Source: an uncultured Chlamydiae bacterium (GTDB lineage Bacteria > Chlamydiota > Chlamydiia > Chlamydiales > SM23-39). From it: a stretch of 64,000 nucleotides of DNA. Positions 12,429 through 43,472 of this stretch are shown piece after piece. Position 1 is the first letter of the stretch. The number at the start of each line of letters is the position of its first letter. Below the pieces are notes generated by a model, which saw only the letters and a list, made by a program, of their open reading frames with translations, was not told where the DNA came from and searched no databases. Where the stretch lies: assembly GCA_903893545.1 (NCBI GenBank), contig CAITMJ010000033.1, forward strand, positions 8,069 through 72,068. Reading direction: 5' to 3'. A program made the translations under genes and the position numbers.

Positions 12429-13295
12429 TCACTCATAGCCTTCTCTTTTGCGAGGAGGCTCGTTGCTAAAAAGCGCGAGCAGCCCTCCAGCCACAATCAA
12501 ACCGATTCCGACCAGTTCCCAGACTTTTGGAATCTCATGAAAAAACCACCATCCTAGAAAACCGCTAAACACAACGCCGAGATACGTCATCGTGCTGACC
12601 TTGGTTGCAGGAGCGTGAGTGAGCGATTTGACGAGAAAATACTGAAAAGCCAACGAAGTAATAGCAATGCAAAATAAATAGACCCAAAGGATTGGCTGAT
12701 CAATCGGCTTCCAAGCAAAAATCATAGGTGGGAAAGCGACAATCGTAGAAATGATGAAATAGTAAGTCATGATTGTTTCGGTCGATTCAGTCTTTGAGAG
12801 CTGGCGTATGCCTACCTGCGCAATCGCAGAAAACAGACCGCCGAGTAGCCCAATCAGCATCACCCATTCTACAGTCTGTGCGGTGGGATGCAAAACGGCT
12901 AAAATCCCAATAAATCCAATGCAAAGAGCCCCTATTCGGGACTTAGGAATGACAAGTTTCAGCCATAGAAAAACAACCAGCGGCATAAACAGCGGAGAAG
13001 TATTGGAAATTGTAACAGCATCCACAAGCGGCAAATATTTTACCGAGTAAAAATAGCAATAGATCCCTGCTATTCCTGTGAGTCCTCTTGCGATATGTTT
13101 TGCAAAAAGCTTTGGATGAACAACAACTCTTCCTAAGAACGTTGCCGGCAATACAAAAAGAAGTGAGATGAAAAACCGGACAAAGACCATCGTTTCATTG
13201 GGAACTGAAGCGGCCAGCTTGATAAATAGCGCACAGATTGCGCTCGAAAAAGCCGCCAAAAGGCCATACAAAAAACCGTGGTGTTCTTTTTCCAT
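12429..13295 (-). CDS. EamA/DMT-family transporter
   Basis: 10-TM-like hydrophobic profile with two EamA-like halves. ATG 13295 overlaps the tpsB stop by 1 nt (TGATG). The track's TTG start at 13298 is also possible. Confidence 0.8.
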   Translation of the reverse strand: MEKEHHGFLYGLLAAFSSAICALFIKLAASVPNETMVFVRFFISLLFVLPATFLGRVVVHPKLFAKHIARGLTGIAGIYCYFYSVKYLPLVDAVTISNTSPLFMPLVVFLWLKLVIPKSRIGALCIGFIGILAVLHPTAQTVEWVMLIGLLGGLFSAIAQVGIRQLSKTESTETIMTYYFIISTIVAFPPMIFAWKPIDQPILWVYLFCIAITSLAFQYFLVKSLTHAPATKVSTMTYLGVVFSGFLGWWFFHEIPKVWELVGIGLIVAGGLLALFSNEPPRKREGYE

Positions 13296-14932
13296 CAATA
13301 ACTGAGAATAACTCCGAAGTTGTATCTCGAATCCGTGATCGGATCAAATCCCGAGTGCCACAACTGAAAACCGTAGTCCAAATGGGCAGAAAAATAACGG
13401 CTCATCTGGTAGCGGATACTCGGCCCAATCGATCCTAGCGAAGCAAAAGAGGCTTCCCCTTGTGCAGGCTTATGATTCGCTCCACAGCCAGCATCGAAAA
13501 ACCCGAGCAAATAGAGCTCATCGTAATGCTTACACCAACCCAATCGATAGGCGGGGCTTGCATGGGGAGTCTCTATCGTCAAATGGATAATCCCCGCATT
13601 GTCCAAATTCAAAATTCTCTCTTCGAATCCACGCACAGAGTTATAGCCAGTCATCGTAAACTGCTCGCTCGGCAGCAAATTCGTCGTTGCATATTGACCG
13701 GAAAGATCGTACGAAAGCCACCAGCCTTTAAACTCTTGGCTTAAAGAATGCGCCGCTCTTACATAGACATAGATCGCTTCAGCCGCGTACCTGAGCGTAT
13801 GATACGAGCTATTGTTGTTGTGATTTGTAATTCCGCCGGGATTGCCAAACAGCTCTACGTTAAATGCAATTTTGCGGTTCCGACTTCTAGCGCCGACATC
13901 ATAGCCGAGCATGATTTGATTGATCGCCGCCATCCCATAGTAGCTAGAGCCTCCCCCGAAGAGTAAATTGGTATTGCTCTCCTTGTAGTCGTAGCCGACG
14001 ACAATTTCCTGCAAAAGATCGATATTCTCATAGAGAGGAAAACGGTAGCGAAGATCCACCTGCCAGCTCACCCCTCGCGGCCGAAGGCCAGAATTTCCCG
14101 CGTCAGGTCTTGCGCTCGCATAACCGCCGTACCCTTGCGCAACGTGTCGAAACCAAGGCAGCGGCACCCGGACATAGCCCGTATGAGAGAAAAAGCGATT
14201 TCCATTGGGCGCCTGCGTATATTGATAAGAGATCTCGCTATCTTGCACGATTGTTTTGCCCAAGTTAACACCGAAAAAAATCCGATTCCGCTCTGTTGAA
14301 ATCGTCCCCGTGTTATCCGCACCTGCATAGACCCGATACGGCCAGCGGTCGACGGTCAGAAGCTCCAAGTCGGCAACTCCTGGGCTCGCTCCAGGCGTAA
14401 ACACCGCATCCGTTCTACGGAACGGATTGTGATTCATAAACGCAAGGTCCTCGTAAAGCTCTTTAGAAACGATCGGATCACCCTCTCTTGCGCGGATGTA
14501 ACCTTCCAATTGCTTGCTCGTAAAATACTTATTTCCCTTAAAGCGAATTTCACCGAGCTTTGCCTCATTGACAACCAACTGCAAGATCCCCTTCGTCACC
14601 TCTTGGCGCGGCGTACTCACTACGACAAGAGGCTGATTGAGCGATTCATAATAGCTAGCAATTGCCTGCTTGATCTCTTGCATCGAAGCTTGCGTCAGAG
14701 GTTTTCCGACAAATTGGAACTCCAAATCGGCCAGAAACTCCTTATTTTTACTCAGCAAACCAACGTCCACAGCTTTTACACCGCGAAACTCATCGACCGG
14801 TTCTGCGCGCACCAAATTCCAGTCCCCCAAGAGTAAAATCCCCTCGAGCTCCGGAATAATGACAGGCTGATCTAACATCTGCGCTCGAAGCGCACTCGCA
14901 AAAAACATCAATACAAAAAATCGGTATCTCAT
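13295..14932 (-). CDS. Two-partner secretion outer-membrane transporter (ShlB/FhaC/HecB family, TpsB)
   Basis: 545 aa. Signal peptide, a POTRA region (LQLVVNEAKLGEIRFKGNKYFTSKQLEGYI...MNHNPF), and a beta-barrel with alternating aromatic pattern. Its ATG overlaps the tpsA stop (ATGA). Confidence 0.85.
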   Translation of the reverse strand: MRYRFFVLMFFASALRAQMLDQPVIIPELEGILLLGDWNLVRAEPVDEFRGVKAVDVGLLSKNKEFLADLEFQFVGKPLTQASMQEIKQAIASYYESLNQPLVVVSTPRQEVTKGILQLVVNEAKLGEIRFKGNKYFTSKQLEGYIRAREGDPIVSKELYEDLAFMNHNPFRRTDAVFTPGASPGVADLELLTVDRWPYRVYAGADNTGTISTERNRIFFGVNLGKTIVQDSEISYQYTQAPNGNRFFSHTGYVRVPLPWFRHVAQGYGGYASARPDAGNSGLRPRGVSWQVDLRYRFPLYENIDLLQEIVVGYDYKESNTNLLFGGGSSYYGMAAINQIMLGYDVGARSRNRKIAFNVELFGNPGGITNHNNNSSYHTLRYAAEAIYVYVRAAHSLSQEFKGWWLSYDLSGQYATTNLLPSEQFTMTGYNSVRGFEERILNLDNAGIIHLTIETPHASPAYRLGWCKHYDELYLLGFFDAGCGANHKPAQGEASFASLGSIGPSIRYQMSRYFSAHLDYGFQLWHSGFDPITDSRYNFGVILSY

Positions 14933-16062
14933 CGTGGTACTTTAAGGTAGTTGTGCTGTAAGTAATAAAGGTGTCGCAAAGTATCTGGATTTTTCCAGTA
15001 AGGGCTGTCTAAGAATTCGAGGTAGCGATCCATGATTCGAAGCGGTTCGCCTGAAATCGTCTGATGCAAGAAATAGTATTCAGGCAATCCGACAGAAATT
15101 GCCGGTTTACTCCCCGCAAAAGAGCGCCGGTGCTGCGCTAAATCAGAAGCGACCATCTCGAAGCCTGCCGTATCGATAAGCCAAGCAAATTCTTGATACC
15201 ATAATCGTTCTGGGATTAAAGAGCGCATTTCCTGCAGAGAGTCGAGCGTCTCTTCCACATAAGCGCCGCCATTTGAAAAAGGAGTGTCCTTCACATTGAC
15301 AAACTGATACGACGAAGCGACCCGTTCTTCTAAAAAGACCCGTCCCGCCTCTTTTCGCACAATCACCGCATCTTCCATCCCCTCTTGGTTCACCGCCAAA
15401 GCATACGGCGCAGCAAGAGCCTCTTTTTGGAACTTTACCTTGGGCCGGATCATCATCCTTGGGCGATCGAGGGAAGGAAGCGAGACCTCATCTCCCTGAA
15501 TCATAAAAACGCGATCTTCAGAAGCTTGCAGGCCACCGCTATTTTCGACAGAAGCGCCGATCAAATAAAGAGGTCCACCAAATGCGCGAATCGCTCCCCG
15601 ATTGATCACCTTTGCATCCTCAGCGCCGGGCCGGAATACAAAATCGCGCCCCTCTAAAAACGCCTGATTATCTAACTCCAAAGACGCCGCTAAAAAGTGG
15701 GCGCAATCGATCTTCCCCGTCTCTCCCACCACAACGCCATACGGATTTACGAGAAAAATCTGGCCATTGCCCTCCATTTTCCCATAGATTTCCGTCAGAT
15801 TCGACCCCGTCACACGGTTTAGCACCGCAGATTTTTCATCGGGCTGGATAAAACGGGCAACTTCATCGCCTGCGATAGAAAAACTATCCCATTCGATGAT
15901 TGCCTGCGGACTTGTCTGAACAACATTTAGCACTTCAGAAGAGGGGCGTTCAACGGCCGCCTCCCCGAAGACGATTTTCTCGCCGGCGGGGTTTGCAAAA
16001 AGGACCATCGGGAGAAGAAGTAACACCAGTGTATACACGTTAGATGCTCCTGTAAGGAACAT
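14929..16062 (-). CDS. Short TpsA exoprotein: N-terminal TPS secretion domain plus an unrecognised C-terminal domain
   Basis: 377 aa. Signal peptide, then EWDSFSIAGDEVARFIQPDEKSAVLNRVTGSNLTEIYGKMEGNGQIFLVNPYGVVVGETG, the haemagglutination-activity/TPS motif (NPNGI-like NPYGV). Confidence 0.8.
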   Translation of the reverse strand: MFLTGASNVYTLVLLLLPMVLFANPAGEKIVFGEAAVERPSSEVLNVVQTSPQAIIEWDSFSIAGDEVARFIQPDEKSAVLNRVTGSNLTEIYGKMEGNGQIFLVNPYGVVVGETGKIDCAHFLAASLELDNQAFLEGRDFVFRPGAEDAKVINRGAIRAFGGPLYLIGASVENSGGLQASEDRVFMIQGDEVSLPSLDRPRMMIRPKVKFQKEALAAPYALAVNQEGMEDAVIVRKEAGRVFLEERVASSYQFVNVKDTPFSNGGAYVEETLDSLQEMRSLIPERLWYQEFAWLIDTAGFEMVASDLAQHRRSFAGSKPAISVGLPEYYFLHQTISGEPLRIMDRYLEFLDSPYWKNPDTLRHLYYLQHNYLKVPR

Positions 16063-16187: not shown

Positions 16188-16260
<73 letters not shown>

Positions 16261-16268
16261 CAAAACGA

Positions 16269-16298
16269 ACCCAAAACGAAAGTTTTGGGTTTTTTTTT
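16269..16298 (+). terminator. Rho-independent terminator after tRNA-Phe
   Basis: acccaaaac-gaaa-gttttgggt stem-loop followed by T8. Confidence 0.7.
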
Positions 16299-16316: not shown

Positions 16317-16733
16317 GGTGAGCGTCTTAATACGGGATTCCCCTATGAAATCCCTGTCGGCGATTCCTAATACATCACGCTAGAAGCAGGCGCCGTGTGC
16401 ATGGATGACACCAAATATATTAGGTCGATCAAGTGTTACTTTCCACACAGCCTTTAAAGTGCGCTGACCCCATCCAGACGGCCTAAGCTTGACTTTTGTC
16501 CGGATGTTTTACATTCGATGTGGAAAGATGCGTCGTCTTAGCCTCGTAGACTTGTGAATCTGTTTGTGACGCGTTTTCTTTAACGCCTAACCAAACATGC
16601 GCATGATGAGCAAAAAAATGATGAACTCGATTTACAAGATACTCTGAATGTTTTGAGAACAGGTAGTCATGAAAGGGAAAAAACCATTTACGATAACAAA
16701 TTCCAGTCTTGGAAATATGCGATTAGAGGAAAT

Positions 16734-17189
16734 ATGGAAAGAAAAAAAGAAACATTTATTTTCGAAGGACTTGGATTCCCTATTGAGCTGATCGATGCTC
16801 CAATGAAAAAGGTGCTCGGTGAATGGGTCATTGACATCAACATGGGCGCTCTTCAACGCTTCGTGTTTAGAGGCTTGATTCACAAGCCTTATCCATTGAC
16901 TGGGAAAGAAATAAAATTCATGAGAAAGTTCTTGAGTCTGTCGACAAAGGAACTCGGCAAAAAACTGGGAGTCACTCACGCTGCTATCGTGAAATGGGAA
17001 AAAGAACAGTCTAGAATTAGCCCGGCTCAAGAGCCCTATCTTCGCATGGTTTTTTTAGAGTGTTTAATGGACAGTGAACTGATTAAGCTGTATCAAGAAA
17101 TACGACCTGAAAAATTAGCAGAAGCAAAAAACGAGAAACATCCTCCATTCCAAGTAAATTCAAAAGAACTTCAAGCTGCAAATTTCTAA
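16734..17189 (+). CDS. XRE-family HTH protein with MqsA-like architecture (zinc-finger cysteines absent)
   Basis: LTGKEIKFMRKFLSLSTKELGKKLGVTHAAIVKWEKEQSRISPAQEPYLR. GAGGA Shine-Dalgarno before ATG 16734. No toxin partner seen. Confidence 0.55.
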   Translation: MERKKETFIFEGLGFPIELIDAPMKKVLGEWVIDINMGALQRFVFRGLIHKPYPLTGKEIKFMRKFLSLSTKELGKKLGVTHAAIVKWEKEQSRISPAQEPYLRMVFLECLMDSELIKLYQEIRPEKLAEAKNEKHPPFQVNSKELQAANF

Positions 17190-17250: not shown

Positions 17251-18054
17251 TTAGAAATTGCCCCTACCAGTCGGCAGATCGGGATATCCTTTGCGCTGTT
17301 TGTCGAGCTCGTCAGAGCCATTGAGGATTCTACGTATTCCATCCCCGATCAGGCCAAGACCAAACCCTCCGGCTAAAGGGAAAACTGAAGCTAAAATACA
17401 GGCGAGGCAACCAGCAAAGATCTCAACACCTCCAGCATAAATGCTTCCAGGTATCTCCTCATTCGGTCCATAGGGATTTTCCTTTGCTACCTTCCCAATA
17501 CTTGAGATATCTGTTTGCTTCTTTTTCTTATTGAGGCCCCACCAGTTCCATTCCCATGGCCAACTAAGGCCATTTTTCCTTATTTCGGTCCCTTTTTTAA
17601 TGACATTCTCTTCCCGAACATTTAGCGCTATCGCATCGGATTCGAATAGATCAATTGTTGCCAAGAGAAGGCTTTGCGCTTCTGCCGGGATCTGGAACAT
17701 GTGCATGTTCTGTTTTACTAGGACGCATGCATCTTTAATCGTTAAGTTCGTCCCATATTGAGCATTCACCTGCTGAATGAATGAGATTAAAAATCTTCGC
17801 CCTTCCTCTAGACGATCGGAAGCAACTTCGATATTGCGCTCCAACTCGTCGAAACGCTCCACCAGTTGAACCTCATTCCCAGTCGTAATTAAATGCACAA
17901 CTTCGGCGCTAAGGGTACTTGATTTTTCTGCATTCAGGGCGAGGGCAATCCCCTCTTGAGGAAGAGTGCACAAGATACAGACAATCGTTATGCCGGTAGT
18001 AGCCAGCCGCCTAAACACGCCAGCATGAAGAAAAGGGAAGTCACCATTAGCCAT
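17251..18054 (-). CDS. Hypothetical membrane protein (267 aa)
   Basis: AGGAG Shine-Dalgarno 7 nt upstream. N-terminal TM segment, a W-rich patch (WPWEWNWWG), and a C-terminal Gly-rich hydrophobic hairpin (VEIFAGCLACILASVFPLAGGFGLGLIG). Confidence 0.5.
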   Translation of the reverse strand: MANGDFPFLHAGVFRRLATTGITIVCILCTLPQEGIALALNAEKSSTLSAEVVHLITTGNEVQLVERFDELERNIEVASDRLEEGRRFLISFIQQVNAQYGTNLTIKDACVLVKQNMHMFQIPAEAQSLLLATIDLFESDAIALNVREENVIKKGTEIRKNGLSWPWEWNWWGLNKKKKQTDISSIGKVAKENPYGPNEEIPGSIYAGGVEIFAGCLACILASVFPLAGGFGLGLIGDGIRRILNGSDELDKQRKGYPDLPTGRGNF

Positions 18055-19659: not shown

Positions 19660-21687
19660 TTAATCAGAACCGGTGGGGGCAAAGGCCGCTTCCGCAGGGC
19701 GGTTTTCAGCCTCGATGCGGATCATATCCCTAAGAACATTAACGGCTTCGTTCATTTGAAGGTCTTCGTCTCCGACCCGGACCTGCTCATCGATCGTGTT
19801 GGCAGGCAGTTCGCTTCTTCGAGTCTCGATCTTTTCAAGGCGGCGAAGGAAAGACTGGTAATCGGAGTTTTTCGCGATCCGGATGGCGCTATTCTTGCGG
19901 AGCTCGGGCAAGATCTTCTTCCAGTAGGGAACAACCCTTTGAAGGAAAGGTAGGTACCTTTTTTCAAACACTTTTTGCGTTTTTTCATCGAGGTCAGTCA
20001 ATGGATCGACATAGGCTGGGCTCACTGAATCTGGGGGAAGTGGATATTCTAGGAATCTCTCGCCGATATTGTAAGGAGCATATTGCGTAGGGACGACGAT
20101 ATCGGCAATGACGCCATCGATCTGGGTGCTGCGCCCAGAGACGGTGTAATAGCGCCCAACGGTGATTTTAAAGAAGAGATCTGCATTGCCATCGGTCACA
20201 GTTTGAAATTGAATGGAGCCTTTGCCAAAGGTTCTTTTGTCGCCAACGACAATGCCAACACCGTAATCTTGGAGAGCCTGTGCGACGATTTCAGCGGCGC
20301 TCGCAGACATTTTCGAGGTGAGGACGACGACCGGTCCGCTAAAAAATTGGCGACCGGCAATGCTGCGAAGATAATGGACGTCGCCTTTGCCATATTTAGA
20401 GATGACAACGACTCCGTTGGAGATAAAAAGACCTGCCACTTTAACAGCCTGGCTTAAGAAACCACCGGAATTTTCCCGAAGATCGAGAACGATTCCACTC
20501 AGATCCCCCCGTTGACTAAATTGCTTAATCGCCTCTTTCATGTCTCGTTCGCTGCTGATGCCATCTCCCCCTTCATAAAACGAATGGAGGGAAATCTTCC
20601 CAATATAGCCATTGCCAAATTTCTCAATGCTCGTCTGGATTCTCTCTTCTTTCATCGCAATTGGCTGTTTTTGAAGGCCTACGGAAAAAGAGGTCTCTTT
20701 ACCGGAGGACCCATCGACCCGTTTAAAGCCGAGTTGGATCTCTCCCTTCCCCTTCTTCTTCAAAACGTCGAGCACTTCTTCAAAGGCTAAGTCGCTGACG
20801 TTCAGTCCGTCGATTGCGACCAATAAATCGTTCAATTGGATCTTTTTAGACTGTTCCGCAGGGCTACCTTTAATCAGCTCAGCAATCACCACCCCGTCGA
20901 CCCCTTCAGAAAGAACGACCCCAATCCCCTCAAACTGCTTTTCTAAGCTCAGGCGCATCTCATACGCCTCTTCAGGGCTAAAAAAAGAAGTGTGGGTATC
21001 TAAGCTTTTTGCAAAAGACTTTAGAATCTTTGTCGCAAGGATATGTTCCTGTTTTATTTTCGAAAGAGGCTCACCAGTAGAGTCTTTGAATAAAACGACC
21101 GATTCAATGCGGCGCATTTTTCGTTCATAGAGAGAAAAAACCTTTGCCTTGCGCTCTAAGGTGTCGAGATTGGCGCGCGACTCATGGAATAGAAAAAATC
21201 GGATCATCCGCATCCCTTGCCGCTGCGTAAGCTCCTCTTCCGTATTGGCATAGCGAGCTTGCGGGACGCCGGATAGGCCGCTCAGATCGATCTTTTGGCC
21301 AAGGAGCTCCTGAGTGAGCATGGAGCGCATCGCCTCGGCGCGGTAAACCGCCCGCTGGAAAAGAGCATTGAGGGAAAGAAAATCAGAGTAATCCCCCGCC
21401 TGCAACCGCTGGATCATCTGGCCGATCTTCTGTTCGCTAAGCTGCAGATAAGGAGCGACTTCTGAGGCGAGGAGGTAGGATTTATCCGGATCGAACTGTT
21501 CGATATATAGCTTGATCGAGCGGCGGACAAGAACGGGGTTTAACTCTTTCATTTCTATGTGAAATGAAAAAAGACGGTCGAGAACGCGTTGAATATCTGT
21601 AATTTTCAAAACTTGAGGATCAGCGGACAACGGGCCAAACCAGCTGCTAAAAAGGAAGATGCAAAGCAACCCTGCTTTTTTCCACAT
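19660..21687 (-). CDS. S41-family C-terminal processing (tail-specific) protease with PDZ domain
   Basis: 675 aa. Signal peptide, DLRENSGGF, catalytic SKMSASAAEIVA, and TFGKGS. Confidence 0.9.
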   Translation of the reverse strand: MWKKAGLLCIFLFSSWFGPLSADPQVLKITDIQRVLDRLFSFHIEMKELNPVLVRRSIKLYIEQFDPDKSYLLASEVAPYLQLSEQKIGQMIQRLQAGDYSDFLSLNALFQRAVYRAEAMRSMLTQELLGQKIDLSGLSGVPQARYANTEEELTQRQGMRMIRFFLFHESRANLDTLERKAKVFSLYERKMRRIESVVLFKDSTGEPLSKIKQEHILATKILKSFAKSLDTHTSFFSPEEAYEMRLSLEKQFEGIGVVLSEGVDGVVIAELIKGSPAEQSKKIQLNDLLVAIDGLNVSDLAFEEVLDVLKKKGKGEIQLGFKRVDGSSGKETSFSVGLQKQPIAMKEERIQTSIEKFGNGYIGKISLHSFYEGGDGISSERDMKEAIKQFSQRGDLSGIVLDLRENSGGFLSQAVKVAGLFISNGVVVISKYGKGDVHYLRSIAGRQFFSGPVVVLTSKMSASAAEIVAQALQDYGVGIVVGDKRTFGKGSIQFQTVTDGNADLFFKITVGRYYTVSGRSTQIDGVIADIVVPTQYAPYNIGERFLEYPLPPDSVSPAYVDPLTDLDEKTQKVFEKRYLPFLQRVVPYWKKILPELRKNSAIRIAKNSDYQSFLRRLEKIETRRSELPANTIDEQVRVGDEDLQMNEAVNVLRDMIRIEAENRPAEAAFAPTGSD

Positions 21688-21931
21688 GCTGACCTTTAGG
21701 GGGGTTAAAAAATGGGAGGCAAAAGAAGTTAGGGTCCCGAATAATCTTTCAAACTTAGCGTCGTAAGCTTCGGCCCGTTCTCTTGTCTCCCAAGGCTGAT
21801 TGTAAAATTAAAATAATTATTTTCGCAATAAATATTAATTAAACAGCGTGAATATAAAACCAAATCTATTATATTAAGAGCATTACACATTAGAAATTTA
21901 CACGTCCAAGACCCTAGAGGCTTAGAATTCT

Positions 21932-21961
21932 TTGCATTAAATTCTCTAGACTTGGTATATT
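21932..21961 (+). promoter_or_regulatory. Candidate sigma-70-type promoter for rpsL inside an A/T-rich leader
   Basis: TTGCAT (21932-21937), 18-nt spacer, TATATT (21956-21961), about 40 nt before the rpsL ATG. Confidence 0.35.
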
Positions 21962-22001
21962 CATCCGAAGAATTTCTATTTTTTTTAGGAGATAGGCACT
22001 C

Positions 22002-22373
22002 ATGCCGACATACAACCAACTCGTTAAGACAGGACGCAAATTTAAAGCCAAAAGACGCAAGTCTCCAGCTCTACATCAGTGTCCACAGCGCCGAGGCGTT
22101 TGCCTCCAGGTTAAGACCAAGACCCCTAAAAAGCCAAACTCCGCACTCCGGAAGGTAGCTTGGGTTCGTCTGTCCAATGGCCAGGAAGTCATCGCATATA
22201 TCCCCGGCGAAGGCCATAATCTTCAGGAACATAGCATCGTATTGGTGCGCGGTGGCAGGGTCAAAGACCTTCCCGGCGTTCGCTACCATATCGTCCGCGG
22301 TTCTCTGGACTGTGCAGCGGTCAAAGACCGTAAAAAATCTCGCTCAAAGTATGGAGCGAAGAAACCCAAGTAA
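22002..22373 (+). CDS. rpsL: 30S ribosomal protein S12
   Basis: [13 protein letters not shown]...[10 protein letters not shown]. Confidence 0.95.
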
Positions 22374-22377
22374 TACC

Positions 22378-22400
22378 AGGATATTGAGATTCAATATCCT
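22378..22400 (+). promoter_or_regulatory. Perfect 10-bp hairpin immediately after rpsL
   Basis: aggatattga-gat-tcaatatcct within the 120-nt rpsL-rpsG spacer. Confidence 0.35.
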
Positions 22401-22493
22401 TGCTCTCGGCAGCCCTTCAAAGAAGAAGGTCGGCCAATGGCAGGCCCTTAAAAGATGGGCCGGGTGAAGAAACTTTTTAGGAGTATTTAACGT

Positions 22494-22967
22494 ATGTCAA
22501 GAAGACGTAGAGCCACCAAGCGGGAAACCCCGCCCGATCCGGTCTACCAAAGCGTCACTTTAGCTAAATTCATCAATAAATTGATGCAAGATGGCAAAAA
22601 GTCGACCGCAAGACGGATCGTCTACCGCGCTCTGGAAAAATTTGCTAGCCGCATAAAAACCGAGAACCCGCTCGAAGCCTTCGAACAAGCAATCGAGAAC
22701 TCAAAACCTGCTCTCGAGGTAAAAACTCGCCGAATCGGAGGAGCCAACTACCAGGTTCCTGTGGAGATTCCAACTGATCGTCGCGTAGCGATGGCAATGG
22801 TTTGGATCATCACACATGCTCGCGCAAAACCGGGCCGAGCGACTGAAGAGGCTTTAGCTTCCGAACTCGTCGACTGCTTCAATAATCAGGGCACGACGAT
22901 CAAGAAAAAAGACGACACTCACCGAATGGCCGAGGCGAATAAAGCCTTTGCTCACTACAAATGGTAA
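22494..22967 (+). CDS. rpsG: 30S ribosomal protein S7
   Basis: 157 aa. GGANYQVPVEI and AHYKW C-terminus. Confidence 0.95.
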   Translation: MSRRRRATKRETPPDPVYQSVTLAKFINKLMQDGKKSTARRIVYRALEKFASRIKTENPLEAFEQAIENSKPALEVKTRRIGGANYQVPVEIPTDRRVAMAMVWIITHARAKPGRATEEALASELVDCFNNQGTTIKKKDDTHRMAEANKAFAHYKW

Positions 22968-22975
22968 AATAAAGT

Positions 22976-25066
22976 ATGAGCCAACGGGCAGAAACAGACT
23001 TGTTACAAAACGTCCGCAACATTGGGATTATGGCCCATATCGATGCGGGCAAGACGACCACGACAGAGAGGATCCTTTTCTACTCTGGAAGGCTCCACCG
23101 CATTGGCGAAGTGCATGAAGGCGCTGCGACCATGGACTTTATGGAACAAGAGAAGGAACGCGGCATCACGATCACGTCTGCTGCGACCACTGTTTATTGG
23201 AAAGATTCCAAGATCAACATCATCGACACGCCCGGCCACGTCGACTTCACCATTGAAGTTGAGCGGTCTCTCCGCGTTCTCGACGGTGCGGTTGCCGTAT
23301 TCTGCGCTGTTGCCGGTGTGCAACCTCAGTCGGAAACCGTCTGGAGACAAGCCGATCGCTACGGAGTCCCCCGCATCGCATTTGTCAACAAATGTGACCG
23401 AACAGGCGCAGACTTCTTCAATGCAGTCCAAACGATGAAAGAGAAGCTCTACGCCAACGCGATTCCAGTGCACTGCCCAATTGGCATGGAAGCAAATTTC
23501 AAAGGGATGGTCGACCTCGTCTCTATGAAGGCATATCTCTTCCACGATGAGACGATGGGAGCCAAATACGACACTGAAGAGATCCCTGCAGATCTTCTCG
23601 AACAGTGCAAAAAAATGCGCACAGCGCTCCTCGAAGAACTCGCAACAGTCGATGAAAGCGACGAAGAGTTCATGATGAAAGTGCTCGACGCTCCCGAGAC
23701 AATCACAGAAGATGAGATCCACGCTGTCATCCGAAAAGGGGTTATCGCACTCAAGTTCACGCCAGTTCTCTGCGGCACTGCCTTCAAAAATAAAGGCGTA
23801 CAGCAGATCCTCGACTGTGTTGTCCGTTGGATGCCATCCCCTCTCGATCGCGGCATGATCAAGGGCCATAAAATGGATACCGATGAGCCGATGGAAATTG
23901 CCCCGTCCGATTCTAGCCCTCTCTCTGCGCTTGCGTTCAAAATTATGACCGACCCTTACGTCGGTAAACTCACCTTTATCCGCATCTACAGCGGCACTTT
24001 GGCAAAAGGGTCTTCCCTTCTCAATACGACAAAAGATAAACGGGAACGCGTTTCTCGTCTTCTCGAGATGCATGCCAACCAGCGCAAAGATAAAGATGAA
24101 TTCTTTACAGGCGATATCGCAGCTTGTATCGGTCTGAAGTACACCACGACAGGCGATACACTTTGCGCAGAAAACAATCCTCTCCTCTTGGAGAAGATGA
24201 ACTTCCCTGCGCCGGTAATTTCGATGGCAATCGAGCCAAAATCAAAAGCCGACCGAGAAAAACTCTCGCTTGCGCTCAGCGCACTTTCTGAAGAAGACCC
24301 AACGTTCCGCGTCTCTACCAACGAAGAGACTGGACAAACGATCATCATGGGCATGGGAGAACTCCACTTGGAGATCCTCCGCGACCGGATGTTCCGCGAG
24401 TTTAGCGTAGAGGCCAACGTCGGAAAGCCAGAAGTTTCCTACAAAGAGACGATCACTGTTCCAGCCAAATCTGAGACAAAATACGTCAAGCAGACAGGCG
24501 GCCGCGGTCAATACGCGCACGTCTGCCTCGAGATCGAACCCAATGAGACAGGCAAAGGCAACGAAGTCGTCAGCAAGATTGTCGGCGGCGTAATCCCGAA
24601 AGAGTACATCAATCCTTGTATTAAGGGGATTGAAGAGGGATTGACCACTGGCGTTCTCGCCGGTTATCCGCTCATCGACACGAAAGTGGCGATTACCTAC
24701 GGTTCGTACCATGAAGTCGACTCGAATGAGATGGCGTTTAAGATTTGTGCATCGATGGCGGTTAAAGACGCTGCGAGAAAAGCAACTCCAATCATCCTCG
24801 AGCCGATCATGAAAGTCGTCGCGACAACGCCGGAAAACTGCGTTGGAGACGTGATTGGCGATTTAAACCGAAGACGCGGAAAGATCCTGGGCCAAGATGC
24901 CTTTAAAGGAACGATCCTCGTAACAGCCGAAGTCCCCTTAAGTGAAATGTTCGGATACTCTACGGTACTCCGCTCGATGACCTCTGGCCGCGCTACCTAT
25001 ACAATGGAGCCGAGCCACTTTGAGCGTGTTCCCACAAAAATTCAAGAAGAAATCATTAAGAAGTAA
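22976..25066 (+). CDS. fusA: Elongation factor G
   Basis: 696 aa. [28 protein letters not shown]. Confidence 0.96.
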
Positions 25067-30066: not shown

Positions 30067-30828
30067 ATGAAGTGGTCTCTTTTTTTTCTATCGATCTTCT
30101 CTTGTGTGACTGGTGAAATCCGAGAAATCCAAACGATTGCTGAGTTTAAAAATCATTTAGATCCCGATGCGCTGGTGCTCTTCGATATAGACAATACCAT
30201 TATGGAAACTACGCAAACTCTCGGTTCAGATCAGTGGTTTACCCATCGCCGAAACGATTACGAAACTCGCGGCTATCCAGCCGTGGAAGCGCTTGAAAAT
30301 GCGCTTGCTGAATGGATGTCGATTCAAAATTTGACAAAAGTCCAAATCGTAGAGAAAGAGACCGCCGATCTTATTCGGGGATTGCAAGAAGAGGGACAAA
30401 CGCTAATGGGCCTTACCACGCGCGGCATGGGGCTAGCCCTCCGAACGATTGAGCAGCTAAAAACGCTACACGTAGATCTCACTAAGACATCTCCTTTGAA
30501 AGAAGAACAGCTTCTTCAAGGCGGGGCAGTTTTATTTCGCCAAGGGATTTTATTCACTGCGGGAACTGATAAGGGCAAAGCGTTTCTCGCCTTATTCAAA
30601 GATAAACTCCCACAGAAAGTGCTATTTATTAACGATAAAGCCTCTCACCTCAAAGAGGTGGAAAGAGCGTGCGAGCAGGCAAAGATTCCATTCATCGGCC
30701 TCCGATACGGTTTTCTCGATGAGAAGGTCAAAAGATTTTCTCATGAAATCGCCGCTATTCAATGGGAACATTTCGGCAAGCTTCTCTCCGATGAAGAAAC
30801 GGCAACGATCCTGAACTTATCTAATTAA
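30067..30828 (+). CDS. Secreted HAD-like protein (DUF2608-like)
   Basis: 253 aa, signal peptide, and HAD motif I LVLFDIDNTIMET. Confidence 0.6.
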   Translation: MKWSLFFLSIFSCVTGEIREIQTIAEFKNHLDPDALVLFDIDNTIMETTQTLGSDQWFTHRRNDYETRGYPAVEALENALAEWMSIQNLTKVQIVEKETADLIRGLQEEGQTLMGLTTRGMGLALRTIEQLKTLHVDLTKTSPLKEEQLLQGGAVLFRQGILFTAGTDKGKAFLALFKDKLPQKVLFINDKASHLKEVERACEQAKIPFIGLRYGFLDEKVKRFSHEIAAIQWEHFGKLLSDEETATILNLSN

Positions 30829-33800
30829 AACTCTCCTCCGATTCCGAGGTAGAAGAATGCATCGAAAAACAAGCTGTTCCATTTAAAGTCAGCCATGGCT
30901 TCGATCTGTACGACTTCGCAGATGGTAGTGAGGAAGTCAAATTCCAAAAGCCAACTATTGCGTCCCATTCCAAGGGCCGTTGTGCTCGCTGTTGTTCCAG
31001 AGGCACTCAAGACCTCATAATCGACAATGCGGTTATGATCGAGATATTCTCTTTGCCAGCCGAAATCAACCTCGGCGTGGAACTGCACAAGGGATTTTTC
31101 CCCTGAAAAAACAACCCTCGTTCCTAGAAATGTACTCAATGATTGAGGATCTTGCGAAGCAAACTGGAGGTCGTACATGCCCGCTCCCGACTCTTCATAT
31201 CCGCTGATGTGATCATAGATGTACTGCAGATCGAGGATAGGAATTAAGGCCAACCCTTCGGGAATCGAAGAATATGTCTTATTGGAGAAGGTGTATTCCA
31301 GATCAAATAAAAGATCGATGATGCTCTCATGCGGGGTTCCAATGGCTACTTCGCTTCCGTTAAGGCCCGTATTGCGGTGTAAATCATCCCAAGCGTAGGC
31401 GTACCCTCCTAGAAAATCGATAGCGATGTCTGGAAGTGCTTTGGGCACGATTGTGCTATACACAGTGCCGTGTAGTTTATTTACAAAGAACGCGCCGCCA
31501 TTTTCATCGATGACGCCTGTTTTACAGCGATAATCGACAGCCCCGCCAATACCTACGTAGTAAGCGCGACTGTCGTTGTCTTCAAAGGCATAGTCGCTGC
31601 CAGCAAGCGCGCCAATGGAGGAATATTTACTGCCCGGCTGCCCTTGTTTTGGATTGATCTGGCCAAATGAAGCGATCGGCCCCCCGTAGATCGTCCACGG
31701 TCTAGGTTGCTTTGCCACGGCCACTTTTTGACTGAGCATCTCCTGCCGTTTTCTAAAGGGACTCATTTCCTCATTGGCTGCGACAAGAGAATTAGGAGCT
31801 GCCGTTGGAAGACGACCGCGAAGCTGCAAACATTTGCGCATAAGTTCTGTGTTGTGCTGCCCGACGGAAGTAAATGTGAGACTTGTCGTCGATGTGCTTG
31901 CATGGGAGGGAACAGAAGGGACTAGGACCAACTGCACGGCGTTTGCTGTGTACTGAATGGAGGGAATAATCGATCCTGGAAACCCTTGCAAAGAGATGGA
32001 AGAAAACTGCGAAACAATCGAGTTTGTCGCGTAGATTAAATCCAATGTCTCTCCACTGGCGAGCGTCAGGCCAGGCAGTGCTGTGACGGTGAGCGGGCCG
32101 GTAAGGGTTGCTGTTTCTGTAGTAATCCCCCCAAAACTCGAGGTCGAGGCGATGTTTACATTGTATTGGGGAGAATTGCTTTCTGTGAATACTGTGGTTG
32201 TGATCAATGCGGCATTGGTGAGCGTTCCTCCAGAAAGAGTAAAGGGCTCTGTCGTGATTAAATAGTTGTTGGTCAACTGACCGCCGCTCATCGCAATGTT
32301 GTTGGTTGAAAGATCTCCGTTATTGACAACTGTTCCTCCGCTCATCGTCACGGTATCGCTCAAAATCAGTTCATTGTTTGTCAGAGTCCCGCCGGTCACG
32401 GTGAACGCAGCAAAAGAAGAGAGCAAGCCGGTGTTTACAATGTTTGCCGTCCCTTGAATTGTGAGGTCTCCTGATGAGGTAATAATCCAACCGCTATTGT
32501 TGACGTTATTTCCTTCGATCACTGCAATGTCAGGTTCGAGAACGCCAGCGTTGTTAAAAGTGCCAAGTCCTCCCGTATCTGTGATCGTGAGCGTATCGAG
32601 AGTTCCCAGCGAAACAGCGGAACCGAATGTCAGGGTAGCTCCAGAGGCAATGCTTATAATCCCAGAAACCGAAGAGGACGACCCTACAATGGGGACATTG
32701 ATGGTATGGCTTCCTGCTTCCACCTGAATTGTCGGAGTGGTTCCCGCAATACTGCCATCCAAGGTGAATTCTCCTCCCCCGCCTGAAAACTGTGAAATTG
32801 TATAAGAGGTCGCTGCCGTATTAAAGACCAAATTAAGCAGCGTAGGAGACTCCTCCACGCTGCCATTGGTCAACTCAATCGCTACCTCAGCAGATGCGAC
32901 AGCAGCAAATGTGGCAGTATCTCCGGCTGGCGCACTAATTCCAGGGACGCACCCGCCAGACCAATTCGAAGAATTGTCCCAAACATCGCTCGCCGATGAA
33001 ATCCAAGTTCCCGAACAGTCAGCCGATACCAACTTCACGGTCGCAGGGCTTACCATCTTTGGACTATATTGGACTGTATATCCAGCAGGAGGAGAGCTAA
33101 ATGTCCCTGTGAGGGAAGTGCCCGACAACAAGGTCAGTGGACTTGAAATGCTCCCTGTCACATTGAGCGTTCCATTTAAAACAAGCGGACCACTTGAATC
33201 GATAAACCCTGGCGCAGAGATATTTAGCGTTAATGCACCACCTGCTGCTTGCGTGTAGCTAGCCACATTGATGGTATTGGCCGCAACCACTGTTCCGTTG
33301 TTGGTCAAGGCGCCTACTTCTGTGACCGCATACGTTTGGAACGTTAACTCTGCCCCCGAAGCAACTGTGACAGCCGATCCGTTTCCAAGTACGTTTGTAG
33401 AGGCCCCTGCTTGCAGAGTGCCTCCGGAAACGGTGGTGGGTCCAGTGTAGTTACTGTTGCCGCTTAAAGTGAGCGTGCCGGTTGTCAGAGTAAGGCCGCC
33501 GCTCCCTGTGATTGCACCGGAAAAGGAGAGGCTGTCGCCATTTGCGATCGTCAAGACTGCAGAACCAGAACCTAAGTTCACATTGCCCGCGCCAGTCAAA
33601 CTGCCAATCGTCGTGTTATAGGTATCTATCGCAAGAGTCGCTCCTGAGCTGACTGTGACAGCAGATCCGACGCCAAACGCGCCACTTGTCTGTGTAGAGC
33701 CTGAAAAAACAGAGACCACGCCCGCTTGCAGGGTTCCCACACTTACAGTCGTAGCGCCCGTGTATGTGTTGGCGCCATTTAAAATTTGCGCCCCAGAGCC

Positions 33801-39110: not shown

Positions 39111-39112
39111 TT

Positions 39113-41310: not shown

Positions 41311-42384
41311 CTAGAAATCCACTTGCATAGACGCATTTATCCCTTGTAAACCAAGATCTCCCTGAGAAGGCTGTCCCGCTCCAGGCGCTTGATCGATAAA
41401 GAAGTAGTTAAAGAGCTGATTTTGATCAAACCAACTCATCATTTCGTATCCTACAGAAACGGAAAGCCGTCTCTTTTGACTGTTGAAAAACATCGCCCAC
41501 TTCGCCCCTACAGCCAGTTCCATCGCATAAGCATTTTGAAAAAACGAGTCCTCTGCATCGAGTAACTCCAGATCGGCGGCGCCAGACATGACCCCTTTTT
41601 GCTCCGTGGCAAATCTTCCGAATAAAAGAGAGGCAGCTCCATTGGCATACAAGCTCCACTGCTTGTTCAGAAACCAGTTGGTTCTCACGCCGGGCTTTAG
41701 CCCCCAACCATCAAAATTATTCTGCATCGACATAGAGACGTTTTCGGCCCCGGCTCCTCCACCAGTTTGATTGAGAAAGGATCCATTGTTATAAGAGCTC
41801 TTTACCTGTTGATGAATAAACGCCCCTGTAAATGCCATGTAAGGATCGATAGAGACCCTACTTGTCGCAAACGATGATCTCGCTAGGCAAAGATCCAATG
41901 TATTGAAGTGGAGAGTCCAGCTTAAAGAGGCATCTTCTGCTACGAACGCTGCCATGCGGAAGCCAGCGGGGAACCAGGTCGCAATGAGAGTATCTGTCGC
42001 AAGAGATGAAATGGATGCAGAACTCTGCGAATGGCTTTGATAGTAGGTCCAAATCAAAGAAGCCTCCCAAGACTGCGCTTCGAACCGATACCCCGCCAAC
42101 AATCGAAATCCGGGATTCCACGAAAAATCGACATCGTGAGAAGTCCCATTGGGCAAAGGTCCCTGTCGATTGTAATGACCTATCGCTGCCGGGTAAATCT
42201 CAGGAAACGTCCATGCGTAAGAAAGACCATCTTGATCTGCCGCCATATACAAAAATTCAGCGCCGACAAATCCATATCCATAGTTTGCCGGGAACGTTGA
42301 CGGGACCTTTTCCCCTACAGCTGCAAAGATACCGACCCACGCAAGGAGACAAGCAAAGGAGAGAGAGTTTCGCAATCGGTTCAT
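41311..42384 (-). CDS. MOMP-like outer-membrane porin paralog 1
   Basis: 357 aa, signal peptide, AEFLYMAADQDGLSYAW, DFSWNPGFR, WTLHFNTLDLCLARS, terminal MQVDF. Confidence 0.75.
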   Translation of the reverse strand: MNRLRNSLSFACLLAWVGIFAAVGEKVPSTFPANYGYGFVGAEFLYMAADQDGLSYAWTFPEIYPAAIGHYNRQGPLPNGTSHDVDFSWNPGFRLLAGYRFEAQSWEASLIWTYYQSHSQSSASISSLATDTLIATWFPAGFRMAAFVAEDASLSWTLHFNTLDLCLARSSFATSRVSIDPYMAFTGAFIHQQVKSSYNNGSFLNQTGGGAGAENVSMSMQNNFDGWGLKPGVRTNWFLNKQWSLYANGAASLLFGRFATEQKGVMSGAADLELLDAEDSFFQNAYAMELAVGAKWAMFFNSQKRRLSVSVGYEMMSWFDQNQLFNYFFIDQAPGAGQPSQGDLGLQGINASMQVDF

Positions 42385-42395
42385 GATATCCTCGC

Positions 42396-43463: not shown

Positions 43464-43472
43464 TCCATCACC

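What the first reader, a model, noticed from the sequence alone, without database searches (positions are those of the whole stretch)
12429..16062. Two-partner secretion locus with a miniature TpsA and a translationally coupled EamA transporter
- **TpsA.** tpsA (14929-16062) encodes only 377 aa. It has a clear TPS secretion domain (…SAVLNRVTGSNLTEIYGKMEGNGQIFLVNPYGVVVGETG…). Roughly 130-170 residues of non-beta-helical, Tyr/Leu-rich sequence follow (…WYQEFAWLIDTAGFEMVASDL…YWKNPDTLRHLYYLQHNYLKVPR), and I cannot place that region in any family.
- **Contrast.** Known TpsA proteins are usually more than 1000 aa, with long beta-helix shafts.
- **Coupling.** tpsA, tpsB and eamA are chained by ATGA and TGATG overlaps, implying co-translation.
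- **Why it matters.** A minimal TPS cargo (a possible toxin or effector head fused directly to the secretion domain) together with a small-molecule exporter is an unusual combination. To my knowledge TPS systems are not part of the classical Chlamydiaceae repertoire.
Basis: partly seen in the sequence, partly recalled or inferred. Interest (0 to 1): 0.7.

Follow-up and report, generated by a model that had tools for sequence, protein, structure and literature searches.

The report
Miniature TpsA with conserved orphan domain
A chlamydia-like bacterium encodes a very small two-partner secretion protein, and in related genomes its unknown ~105-residue tail, not its secretion domain, is the part that always stays with (or is fused to) the outer-membrane transporter, which points to an undescribed variant of type V secretion.

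Summary
Three minus-strand genes are chained by ATGA and TGATG overlaps:
- tpsA: 377 aa, TPS domain at residues 24-245.
- tpsB: 545 aa, two POTRA domains plus a ShlB barrel.
- eamA: 288 aa.

TpsA is not a truncated pseudogene. At least 15 full-length orthologues (44-99% identity, 318-393 aa) keep the same layout. A 1213-aa relative in an orthologous slot shows the mini form is a long TpsA minus its ~865-aa shaft.

The C-terminal ~105 residues (CTD) are a rare orphan domain. I found no Pfam, PDB-sequence or Foldseek match, and only 35 representatives among 1.84 billion proteins. The CTD occurs in four layouts, always beside one TpsB clade:
- long TpsA;
- mini TpsA;
- signal peptide plus CTD only, with no TPS domain;
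- CTD fused to the barrel in place of POTRA1 (at least nine fused clusters).

The constant unit is therefore CTD plus TpsB, not TPS plus TpsB. My best reading (0.45) is that the CTD is a periplasmic TpsB-docking or anchor module. The main rival (0.3) is that the CTD is the exported cargo.

EamA follows tpsB in 6 of 12 informative loci, so it is a facultative operon partner. I rate this a new variant of a known kind.

The parts
14929..16062 (-). tpsA, the miniature (shaft-less) TpsA. 377 aa from the ATG at 16062. Alternative GTG start at 16038 gives 369 aa.
   Evidence: ORF. PF05860 at 1.3e-22 and TIGR01901. 15 full-length orthologues.
15994..16062 (-). Sec signal peptide, residues 1-23 (MFLTGASNVYTLVLLLLPMVLFA|NPAGEK).
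   Evidence: Read from the sequence. A23, P25 and G27 are invariant in alignment A1. No signal-peptide predictor was run.
15328..15993 (-). TPS secretion domain, residues 24-245, of the HMW1/EtpA/HxuA type.
   Evidence: Pfam hit. PDB sequence hits: EtpA 8cpk 3.3e-26, HMW1 pro-piece 2odl 2.3e-25, HxuA 4i84 8.9e-20. 50% identical to residues 1-237 of the long TpsA P0038.
15247..15327 (-). Variable linker, residues 246-272.
   Evidence: Mean pairwise identity 0.32, against 0.61 for the TPS core and 0.53 for the CTD. Orthologues carry indels here. It marks the site where the ~865-aa shaft of P0038 is missing.
14932..15246 (-). CTD: orphan C-terminal domain, residues 273-377. Motifs LQxxRxLIPERLWxQEF and YFLxxTxSGExIRIxDxYxEFxxSPYWKxP.
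   Evidence: Alignments A2 and A3. No Pfam, PDB-sequence or fold match. 35 representatives in 1.84e9 proteins. AF2 model of the domain alone: pLDDT 75.7, pTM 0.38.
13295..14932 (-). tpsB, an Omp85/TpsB transporter of 545 aa. Approximate layout: POTRA1 residues 27-123, POTRA2 124-195, barrel 196-545. L6 VRGF motif at residue ~433 and FFDAG at ~478.
   Evidence: Pfam ShlB, POTRA and POTRA_2. CdiB 6wim at 7.8e-06. Motifs conserved in all relatives. More than 110 homologue clusters.
12429..13295 (-). eamA, a DMT/EamA-family inner-membrane transporter of 288 aa. Its start overlaps the tpsB stop (TGATG).
   Evidence: PF00892, two repeats, 5.8e-33. Orthologues at 40-75% identity lie directly downstream of tpsB in L005, L009, L012, L013 and L014.

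Best explanation
The locus is a functional but radically shortened type Vb (two-partner) system.

Proposed mechanism:
1. TpsA is exported by Sec.
2. Its HMW1/EtpA/HxuA-type TPS domain is recognised by the POTRA domains of the co-translated TpsB and is threaded outward through the 16-stranded barrel.
3. The ~105-residue CTD folds in the periplasm and stays there, docked on TpsB (POTRA2 or the periplasmic mouth of the barrel).
4. The ~18-25-residue linker occupies the pore, so the protein remains cell-bound.

The CTD-TpsB contact, not the TPS-POTRA contact, is the evolutionarily constant core of the family. That is why relatives can lose the shaft, then the TPS domain, and finally fuse the CTD onto the barrel in place of POTRA1.

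What is shown:
- the domain architecture;
- conservation of the mini form;
- the four architectures in orthologous slots;
- loss of POTRA1 in the fusions;
- weaker POTRA1 conservation when the TPS domain is absent.

What is inferred:
- the topology (CTD periplasmic, TPS stub outside);
- the physical docking;
- the cellular role of the CTD-TpsB pair, which remains unknown.

EamA is a co-transcribed, facultative neighbour.
For: 1. The TPS domain is of the HMW1/EtpA/HxuA class. In that class a C-terminal domain that stays in the periplasm and locks the TpsA in its TpsB is described (review PMC5422565).

2. The CTD lies at the extreme C-terminus in all TpsA-type members, including the 1213-aa P0038.

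3. Signal peptide plus CTD proteins with no TPS domain (105-173 aa) are the commonest form: 20 of 35 representatives. In every context I fetched they sit directly upstream of the same TpsB clade, mostly with the same ATGA overlap. A periplasmic partner needs no secretion signal.

4. At least nine distinct clusters are SP-CTD-POTRA2-barrel fusions. They give no POTRA1 match at E<=10 and a full POTRA2 match at 1e-19 to 1e-38. They fall in three or more places on the TpsB tree and occupy slots orthologous to the split forms (versus 34). This is a Rosetta-stone signal for a physical CTD-TpsB complex.

5. PlpD gives a precedent for an N-terminal domain on an Omp85 barrel that is periplasmic rather than secreted (PMC11116518).

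6. At matched barrel divergence, POTRA1 is less conserved when the partner lacks a TPS domain (0.34-0.39 versus 0.47-0.53 identity). So POTRA1 serves the TPS domain, not the CTD.

7. One standalone/fused sub-clade carries a C-x8-10-C loop just before the CTD (P0044, P0054, P0057, P0060, P0061). This recalls the disulfide stopper of the HMW1/HxuA anchor.

8. The minimum TPS-to-CTD spacing is 12-25 residues, enough to span a barrel.
Against: - There is no direct evidence for topology or for a CTD-TpsB contact.
- The window's CTD has no cysteine and no detectable similarity to HxuA or EtpA chains in the PDB. It is therefore not the HMW1-type anchor by descent.
- A pure anchor would be useless once the shaft and TPS domain are gone, so the CTD-TpsB pair must have a further function that I cannot name.
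- The 292-331-aa forms keep only the N-terminal half of the TPS domain plus the CTD. That looks like signal plus cargo.
- The translocation-associated L6 VRG[FY] and FxDxG motifs stay intact in every architecture. This is also what a cargo model expects.
- The tree is neighbour-joining without support values. Several CTD/TpsB pairings were inferred from equal contig lengths only.
Confidence: 0.45

Rival explanations
1. The CTD is the exported cargo, a small surface or secreted effector. The TPS domain is only its address label. Relatives have replaced that label with direct recognition by POTRA2 (standalone forms) or with covalent attachment to the transporter (type Vd-like fusions).
For: - The CTD is the most persistently conserved part, with near-invariant polar and aromatic residues (E, R, D, Y, W) that could form a binding or active site.
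- The forms shrink progressively while always keeping the N-terminal TPS half and the CTD.
- POTRA2, L6 VRG[FY] and FxDxG are conserved in all architectures.
- The fused layout SP-domain-single POTRA-barrel equals the classical type Vd scheme (PMC5422565; PMC4104836).
Against: - No substrate without a TPS domain is known for a TpsB (established knowledge; review PMC5422565).
- POTRA1, the expected recruitment site, is less conserved in the standalone-partner TpsBs.
- The type Vd prototype's passenger is now reported to be periplasmic (PMC11116518).
- A small, aromatic-rich alpha/beta domain, sometimes preceded by a Cys-Cys loop, is not a typical type V passenger.
Confidence: 0.3
2. The TpsB barrel, with the CTD as periplasmic gate or adaptor, has been repurposed as an outer-membrane conduit that works with the EamA inner-membrane transporter to move a small metabolite across the envelope.
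For: - eamA overlaps the tpsB stop in the window.
- It lies directly downstream of tpsB in 6 of 12 informative loci, spanning both main TpsB clades, with orthologues at 40-75% identity.
- The mature TpsB seems to start about 8 residues before POTRA1, and its N-terminal region is about 23 residues shorter than that of CdiB. That leaves little room for an H1 plug helix (by inspection only).
Against: - eamA is absent from half of the loci, while CTD and TpsB persist there.
- I know of no precedent for TpsB proteins acting as metabolite channels.
- Adjacency may simply reflect the conserved eamA-obg neighbourhood.
Confidence: 0.08
3. This is a CDI-like polymorphic toxin system, in which the CTD is a toxin delivered to competitors or to host cells.
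For: The CTD is a C-terminal ~100-aa domain on a TpsA. There is one very weak profile hit to the colicin E5 RNase domain (E=1.4).
Against: - The CTD is conserved rather than hypervariable.
- There is no pre-toxin motif such as VENN in the sequence.
- No small immunity ORF follows tpsA. The next gene is tpsB, with a 4-nt overlap.
- The locus is chromosomal and syntenic next to obg-rpmA-rplU across genomes.
- The colicin hit is not significant, and Foldseek finds nothing.
Confidence: 0.04
4. The mini TpsA is a decaying, non-functional remnant of a long TpsA.
For: It derives from a long form by loss of about 865 aa. Relatives show further erosion of the TPS domain.
Against: - The reading frames are intact.
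- Length and motifs are conserved over 44-99% identity in at least 15 clusters. The TPS core is at 0.61 identity and the CTD at 0.53, against 0.32 for the linker.
- The ATGA coupling to tpsB is conserved.
- POTRA1 is more constrained in TpsBs whose partner has a TPS domain.
Confidence: 0.03

Closest known systems
HMW1A/HMW1B and HxuA/HxuB of Haemophilus influenzae (TPS family 2, with a C-terminal periplasmic anchor)
   Same: - Same TPS-domain subfamily by sequence: 2odl at 2.3e-25, 4i84 and 4rm6 at ~1e-19.
- Gene order A-B-(third gene).
- A C-terminal module reported or expected to stay in the periplasm and lock the TpsA in its TpsB (PMC5422565).
   Different: - Those TpsAs are large and carry a beta-helix (the HxuA chain in the PDB is 884 aa).
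- Their anchor is short (the last 66 aa in HxuA) and depends on a disulfide.
- Here there is no shaft, the tail is a ~105-aa Cys-free orphan domain with no sequence similarity to them, and it survives as a separate or barrel-fused protein.
EtpA/EtpB of enterotoxigenic E. coli
   Same: Best solved-structure match to the window's TPS domain: 8cpk at 3.3e-26, residues 24-199.
   Different: EtpA is a long beta-helical glycosylated adhesin (the 8vba chain is 1564 aa) that is secreted. It has no CTD-like domain (no hit).
PlpD / type Vd (patatin-like Omp85 proteins)
   Same: Relatives of this locus (P0059, P0060, P0179-P0182, P0189, P0190, P0192) have the same layout: signal peptide, N-terminal non-POTRA domain, one POTRA, 16-strand Omp85-type barrel. 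The PlpD N-terminal domain is reported to be periplasmic.
   Different: - The window itself is a two-gene system.
- The domain is not patatin.
- The barrel is ShlB/TpsB-type (PF03865) and is clearly derived from a TpsB by loss of POTRA1.
FhaB prodomain and CdiA C-terminal region
   Same: C-terminal portions of TpsA proteins. For FhaB, a paper cited in the review reports that the prodomain remains intracellular (PMC5422565 reference list).
   Different: Those belong to very large TpsAs of TPS family 1. CdiA-CT is hypervariable and comes with an immunity gene. Neither is known as a standalone gene product or fused to the transporter.

Membership tests
Type Vb two-partner secretion, TpsA exoprotein | N-terminal Sec signal peptide followed by a TPS domain with the NPxG-type motifs | tested here: met
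   PF05860 at 1.3e-22 and TIGR01901 at 1.4e-17. LNRVTG and VNPYG motifs and a hydrophobic leader are read in the sequence.
Type Vb two-partner secretion, TpsA exoprotein | Long, mostly beta-helical passenger downstream of the TPS domain (typical, large proteins) | tested here: not met
   Only about 130 aa follow the TPS domain. They are predicted alpha/beta rather than beta-helix. The ~865-aa shaft present in P0038 is absent.
Type Vb two-partner secretion, TpsA exoprotein | Cognate TpsB encoded adjacently | tested here: met
   tpsB overlaps the tpsA stop (ATGA). The same coupling is found in 10 of 13 related loci.
Type Vb two-partner secretion, TpsA exoprotein | TpsB-dependent translocation across the outer membrane | not testable with these tools
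   This needs expression and fractionation. The only indirect support is the stronger POTRA1 conservation in TpsBs whose partner has a TPS domain.
TpsB (ShlB/FhaC/HecB) transporters | Two POTRA domains plus an Omp85-type barrel with the L6 VRG[FY] tetrad and the FxDxG motif | tested here: met
   PF03865, PF07244 and PF08479. VRGF and FFDAG are present and conserved in all relatives. CdiB 6wim at 7.8e-06.
TpsB (ShlB/FhaC/HecB) transporters | N-terminal H1 plug helix and linker before POTRA1 | tested here: inconclusive
   Only about 8 mature residues precede the first POTRA strand by inspection, and the N-terminal region is about 23 residues shorter than in CdiB. No structure of TpsB was predicted.
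HMW1/HxuA-type C-terminal periplasmic anchor | Short C-terminal segment with a disulfide-bonded loop | tested here: not met
   The window's CTD has 0 Cys. The CTD profile does not hit the HxuA or EtpA chains in the PDB. Some standalone or fused relatives have a C-x8-10-C loop, but it lies N-terminal to the CTD.
CDI / polymorphic toxin TpsA (CdiA-CT with CdiI) | Hypervariable C-terminal toxin after a pre-toxin motif, with an immunity gene immediately downstream | tested here: not met
   The CTD is conserved. There is no VENN-type motif. The downstream gene is tpsB and no small ORF is present.
Type Vd (PlpD-like) | Single polypeptide: N-terminal patatin domain, one POTRA, Omp85 barrel | tested here: not met
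   The window has separate genes and no patatin domain. The layout, but not the domain, is met by the relatives P0059, P0060, P0179-182, P0189, P0190 and P0192.
EamA/DMT transporters | Two EamA repeats in a ~290-aa polytopic membrane protein | tested here: met
   PF00892 at 5.8e-33 with 2 stretches. TIGR00950 scores 69.8 bits, below its 230.2-bit cutoff, so no specific subfamily or substrate can be assigned.

The most novel reading that the evidence does not exclude
The CTD plus TpsB pair is a distinct, undescribed Omp85-based module of chlamydia-like bacteria, in which the transporter's obligate partner is recognised without any TPS domain. The window's mini-TpsA, the long TpsA, the TPS-less standalone CTD and the CTD-POTRA2-barrel fusions would then be snapshots of a type Vb to Vd-like transition occurring repeatedly at orthologous loci. 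On this reading TPS-independent partner handling by a TpsB exists in nature. The CTD-TpsB pair would also have its own envelope function, possibly linked to the EamA transporter.
Probability: 0.3. Interest if true: 0.8.

Novelty: new variant of a known kind. Interest (0 to 1): 0.62.

Why it matters
Two-partner secretion is defined by the TPS domain/POTRA handshake and by very large beta-helical cargo. This family breaks both rules.
- The cargo can shrink to a bare TPS domain plus a 105-residue orphan domain.
- In close relatives the TPS domain disappears altogether, while the orphan domain and the transporter stay together or fuse.

This gives a natural series for two open questions:
- what a TpsB needs in order to recognise a partner;
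- how two-gene type Vb systems turn into single-chain, type Vd-like Omp85 proteins, whose topology is currently disputed for PlpD.

It also flags a conserved envelope module in uncultured Parachlamydiales-like bacteria. I found no paper describing a TPS system in that group, and the module is small enough (about 40 kDa plus 60 kDa) to test in E. coli.

Tried and rejected
- Pfam, NCBIfam and PDB-sequence profile searches of the CTD found nothing significant. The only hits were one member to DUF7679 at 0.033 and colicin E5 at E=1.4.
- AF2 of full-length TpsA with 16 sequences was poor: pLDDT 48.7, C-terminus below 50.
- AF2 of the CTD with 43 sequences was moderate: pLDDT 75.7, pTM 0.38. Foldseek of that model against the PDB gave no match (best E=0.72).
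- I tested whether the CTD is a cryptic POTRA using hhalign. Probability was below 1%, but the POTRA1-versus-POTRA2 control also failed, so the test is uninformative.
- An Rfam scan for a riboswitch or leader found only tRNAs.
- The promoter/terminator scan was at or below shuffle expectation, apart from the tRNA-Phe hairpin.
The genome-contig scan gave 6 loci.
- Literature searches joining Chlamydiae or Chlamydiales with TPS, TpsB, ShlB, FhaC or hemagglutinin found no paper describing such a system.
- Truncated pseudogene rejected.
- CDI-type toxin rejected: no immunity gene and a conserved CT.
- The second large TpsA in L007 has no CTD.

Full report
**1. What is in the window**

Three minus-strand ORFs occupy 12429-16062.

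- The first (14929-16062, 377 aa) carries a TPS secretion domain: PF05860 at E=1.3e-22, residues 45-245, and TIGR01901 at 1.4e-17.
- The second (13295-14932, 545 aa) is a ShlB/FhaC-type Omp85 transporter with two POTRA hits. It has the L6 VRGF and FFDAG motifs.
- The third (12429-13295 from its ATG) has two EamA repeats at 5.8e-33.

A tRNA-Phe on the other strand (16188-16261) bounds the operon upstream.

There are two refinements. The TPS domain extends to about residue 245, so the unplaced tail is about 130 aa. A GTG at 16038 with a good AGGAG spacing may be the true start (369 aa).

**2. Not a truncation**

A search of 5.8 billion proteins returns 15 clusters that cover 92-100% of the protein at 44-99% identity and are 318-393 aa long. 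In their alignment the TPS core (0.61 mean identity) and the last ~105 residues (0.53) are conserved. The 27-residue stretch between them is variable (0.32) and carries indels.

One relative, P0038 (1213 aa), matches the window protein in two blocks:
- residues 22-244 align to P0038 1-237 at 50% identity;
- residues 267-374 align to P0038 1105-1212 at 40% identity.

P0038 lies in a slot orthologous to that of the 367-aa P0015. Both have Cupin_2 and Aminotran_5 upstream and a tpsB overlapping downstream. The mini-TpsA is therefore a long TpsA that lost its ~865-aa shaft and was then maintained.

**3. The tail is a rare orphan domain**

A profile of the tail (A2) found nothing in Pfam or PDB sequences. 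A 43-sequence profile (A3) gave only a non-significant colicin E5 hit at E=1.4.

An AF2 model of the domain is of moderate confidence (pLDDT 75.7, pTM 0.38). Its order of elements is helix, strand, helix, strand, then short helices. It has no Foldseek match in the PDB.

An exhaustive HMMER scan of 1.84 billion representatives found only 35 proteins. Near-invariant positions are Q277, P284, E285, R286, F292, Y330, G338, R342, D345, Y347, F350, P354, W356 and P359.

**4. Four architectures, one transporter clade**

The 35 representatives, read from their sequences, fall into these groups:
- 11 mini-TpsAs;
- 2 long TpsAs (P0038 and the C-terminal fragment P0033);
- 20 proteins that are only a signal peptide plus the CTD (105-173 aa when complete; three are shorter fragments);
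- 2 proteins in which the CTD is fused to the N-terminus of a TpsB.

Searching with the window's TpsB gave more than 110 clusters at 40% identity or above, all from MAGs or metagenomes. Where named, they are Parachlamydiales, Chlamydiia or 'Verrucomicrobiota' MAGs.

That search revealed more fusions: P0179-P0182, P0189, P0190 and P0192. All nine complete fusions lack any POTRA1 match at E<=10 and have a full POTRA2 match (1e-19 to 1e-38) right after the CTD.

Every context I could fetch shows the CTD-bearing gene directly upstream of this TpsB. Ten of 13 loci have the same ATGA/GTGA overlap.

The loci are syntenic:
- window, L005, L007, L012, L014/15, L017 and L024 all lie next to obg-rpmA-rplU and a Znu-type ABC system;
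- the fused L026/27 shares lipB-ftsW neighbours with the split L016.

Obg is 70-90% identical among these genomes, so the architectural turnover is recent relative to housekeeping divergence.

A TPS-domain HMM shows a size continuum:
- full TPS in the 349-422-aa forms;
- only the N-terminal 106-158 profile positions in the 292-331-aa forms;
- none in the standalone forms.

**5. Evolutionary pattern**

I built a neighbour-joining tree of the barrel region, without support values.
- The window falls in a monophyletic clade whose members all have TPS-bearing partners.
- The sister clade mixes standalone and fused forms with one long/mini branch.
- Fusions appear in at least three places.

At matched barrel divergence, POTRA1 is clearly less conserved in TpsBs whose partner lacks a TPS domain: 0.34-0.39 versus 0.47-0.53 identity. 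POTRA2 differs less. The L6 and FxDxG motifs are intact everywhere.

I read this as follows. In the window's clade the TPS-POTRA1 handshake is still under selection, so canonical export of the TPS domain is likely. Elsewhere that handshake has been abandoned, but the CTD-TpsB association has not.

**6. Mechanism**

The window's TPS domain belongs to the HMW1/EtpA/HxuA class. [quoted passage not shown] PlpD, the prototype of N-terminal-domain-Omp85 fusions, is now reported to keep that domain in the periplasm (PMC11116518).

A periplasmic, TpsB-docking CTD explains all four architectures with the fewest assumptions:
- no secretion signal is needed for the standalone forms;
- the fusions are topologically trivial;
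- POTRA1 becomes dispensable.

I give this reading 0.45.

Its weak point is that a mere anchor should not outlive what it anchors. The CTD-TpsB pair must therefore do something more, and I cannot identify what.

The main rival (0.30) is that the CTD is the exported cargo. On that view the TPS domain is a replaceable address label, and the fusions are true type Vd-like autotransporters. The retention of only the TPS N-terminal half plus the CTD in the smallest TpsA forms, and the universal conservation of POTRA2 and L6, fit this model.

I rate the other readings low, for the reasons given under the rival explanations:
- EamA-coupled conduit: 0.08
- CDI-like toxin: 0.04
- decaying remnant: 0.03

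**7. EamA**

Orthologous eamA genes (40-75% identity) sit directly after tpsB in the window, L005, L009, L012, L013 and L014/15. They are missing in L001-4, L007, L016, L017, L020 and L024. It is an operon neighbour in half of the loci, not a defining component. NCBIfam gives no specific subfamily, so the substrate is unknown.

**8. Comparison and novelty**

The pair passes the sequence-level tests for TpsA/TpsB membership except for the beta-helical passenger. It fails the tests for a CDI toxin, for an HMW1-type disulfide anchor and for type Vd.

I found no paper linking Chlamydiae with TPS systems in the searchable library. Absence from that library is not proof of novelty.

I classify this as a new variant of a known kind: a shaft-less type Vb system built around an undescribed transporter-associated domain.

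**Limits**
- No experimental data.
- No complex structure prediction.
- The tree has no support values.
- Several CTD/TpsB pairings were inferred from matching contig lengths.
- The taxonomy rests on MAG labels and synteny.

Noticed in passing
window 30825-39125 (-), with 39113-41296 (-) downstream: A 2766-aa ORF with 8 PATR (passenger-associated transport) repeats, E=2.3e-40. This suggests a giant autotransporter-like passenger. It is followed by an overlapping 727-aa ORF with no Pfam hit.
   Followed up: partly
window 41311-44579 (-): Three tandem paralogues (357, 355 and 368 aa) of the Legionella major outer-membrane protein family PF05150, presumably a porin array.
   Followed up: partly
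window 16188-16292: tRNA-Phe (GAA) on the plus strand, immediately followed by an 11-bp bidirectional hairpin terminator (16267-16292). It separates the tRNA from the region further upstream and marks the upstream boundary of the tps operon.
   Followed up: partly
window 16038 versus 16062: The annotated ATG start of tpsA has GAAGG immediately adjacent. A GTG eight codons downstream has AGGAG 9 nt upstream and matches the start of the 99%-identical P0001 (369 aa).
   Followed up: partly
window 16653-17189 (+) and 17251-18054 (-): A 178-aa HTH_3-type ORF and a 267-aa ORF with no family and a Gly-rich hydrophobic C-terminus lie between the tps operon and an aminotransferase. They are absent from the syntenic locus L014.
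   Followed up: no
L009 5813-8569 (+): In the 'Verrucomicrobiota' MAG REEB169, the TpsB partnered with a 386-aa mini-TpsA is 918 aa. It has an N-terminal extension of roughly 370-440 aa with no Pfam hit before POTRA1.
   Followed up: no
L007 1-2656 (+): A second, large TpsA (at least 1641 aa, TPS domain) lies 5 kb upstream of the mini-TpsA in GCA_964644465.1. Its C-terminus is unrelated to the CTD.
   Followed up: partly
L012 5291-5908, L013 3923-4549, L024 5348-5959: A DUF2490 gene (L013 copy 2.9e-19; the 205-aa L012 ORF is assigned by sequence similarity only) sits immediately upstream of the standalone-CTD or fused genes in three loci. It is not present in the window.
   Followed up: no
P0044, P0054, P0057, P0060, P0061 (relatives, N-termini): A sub-clade of standalone and fused CTD proteins begins, right after the signal peptide, with a C-x8-10-C-[AY]GW loop that the window's protein lacks.
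   Followed up: partly
window 19660-25066: The arrangement of tail-specific protease with EF-G (S7 and S12 between them in L014; not checked in the window) next to the tps locus is shared with locus L014, indicating extended macro-synteny among these MAGs.
   Followed up: no
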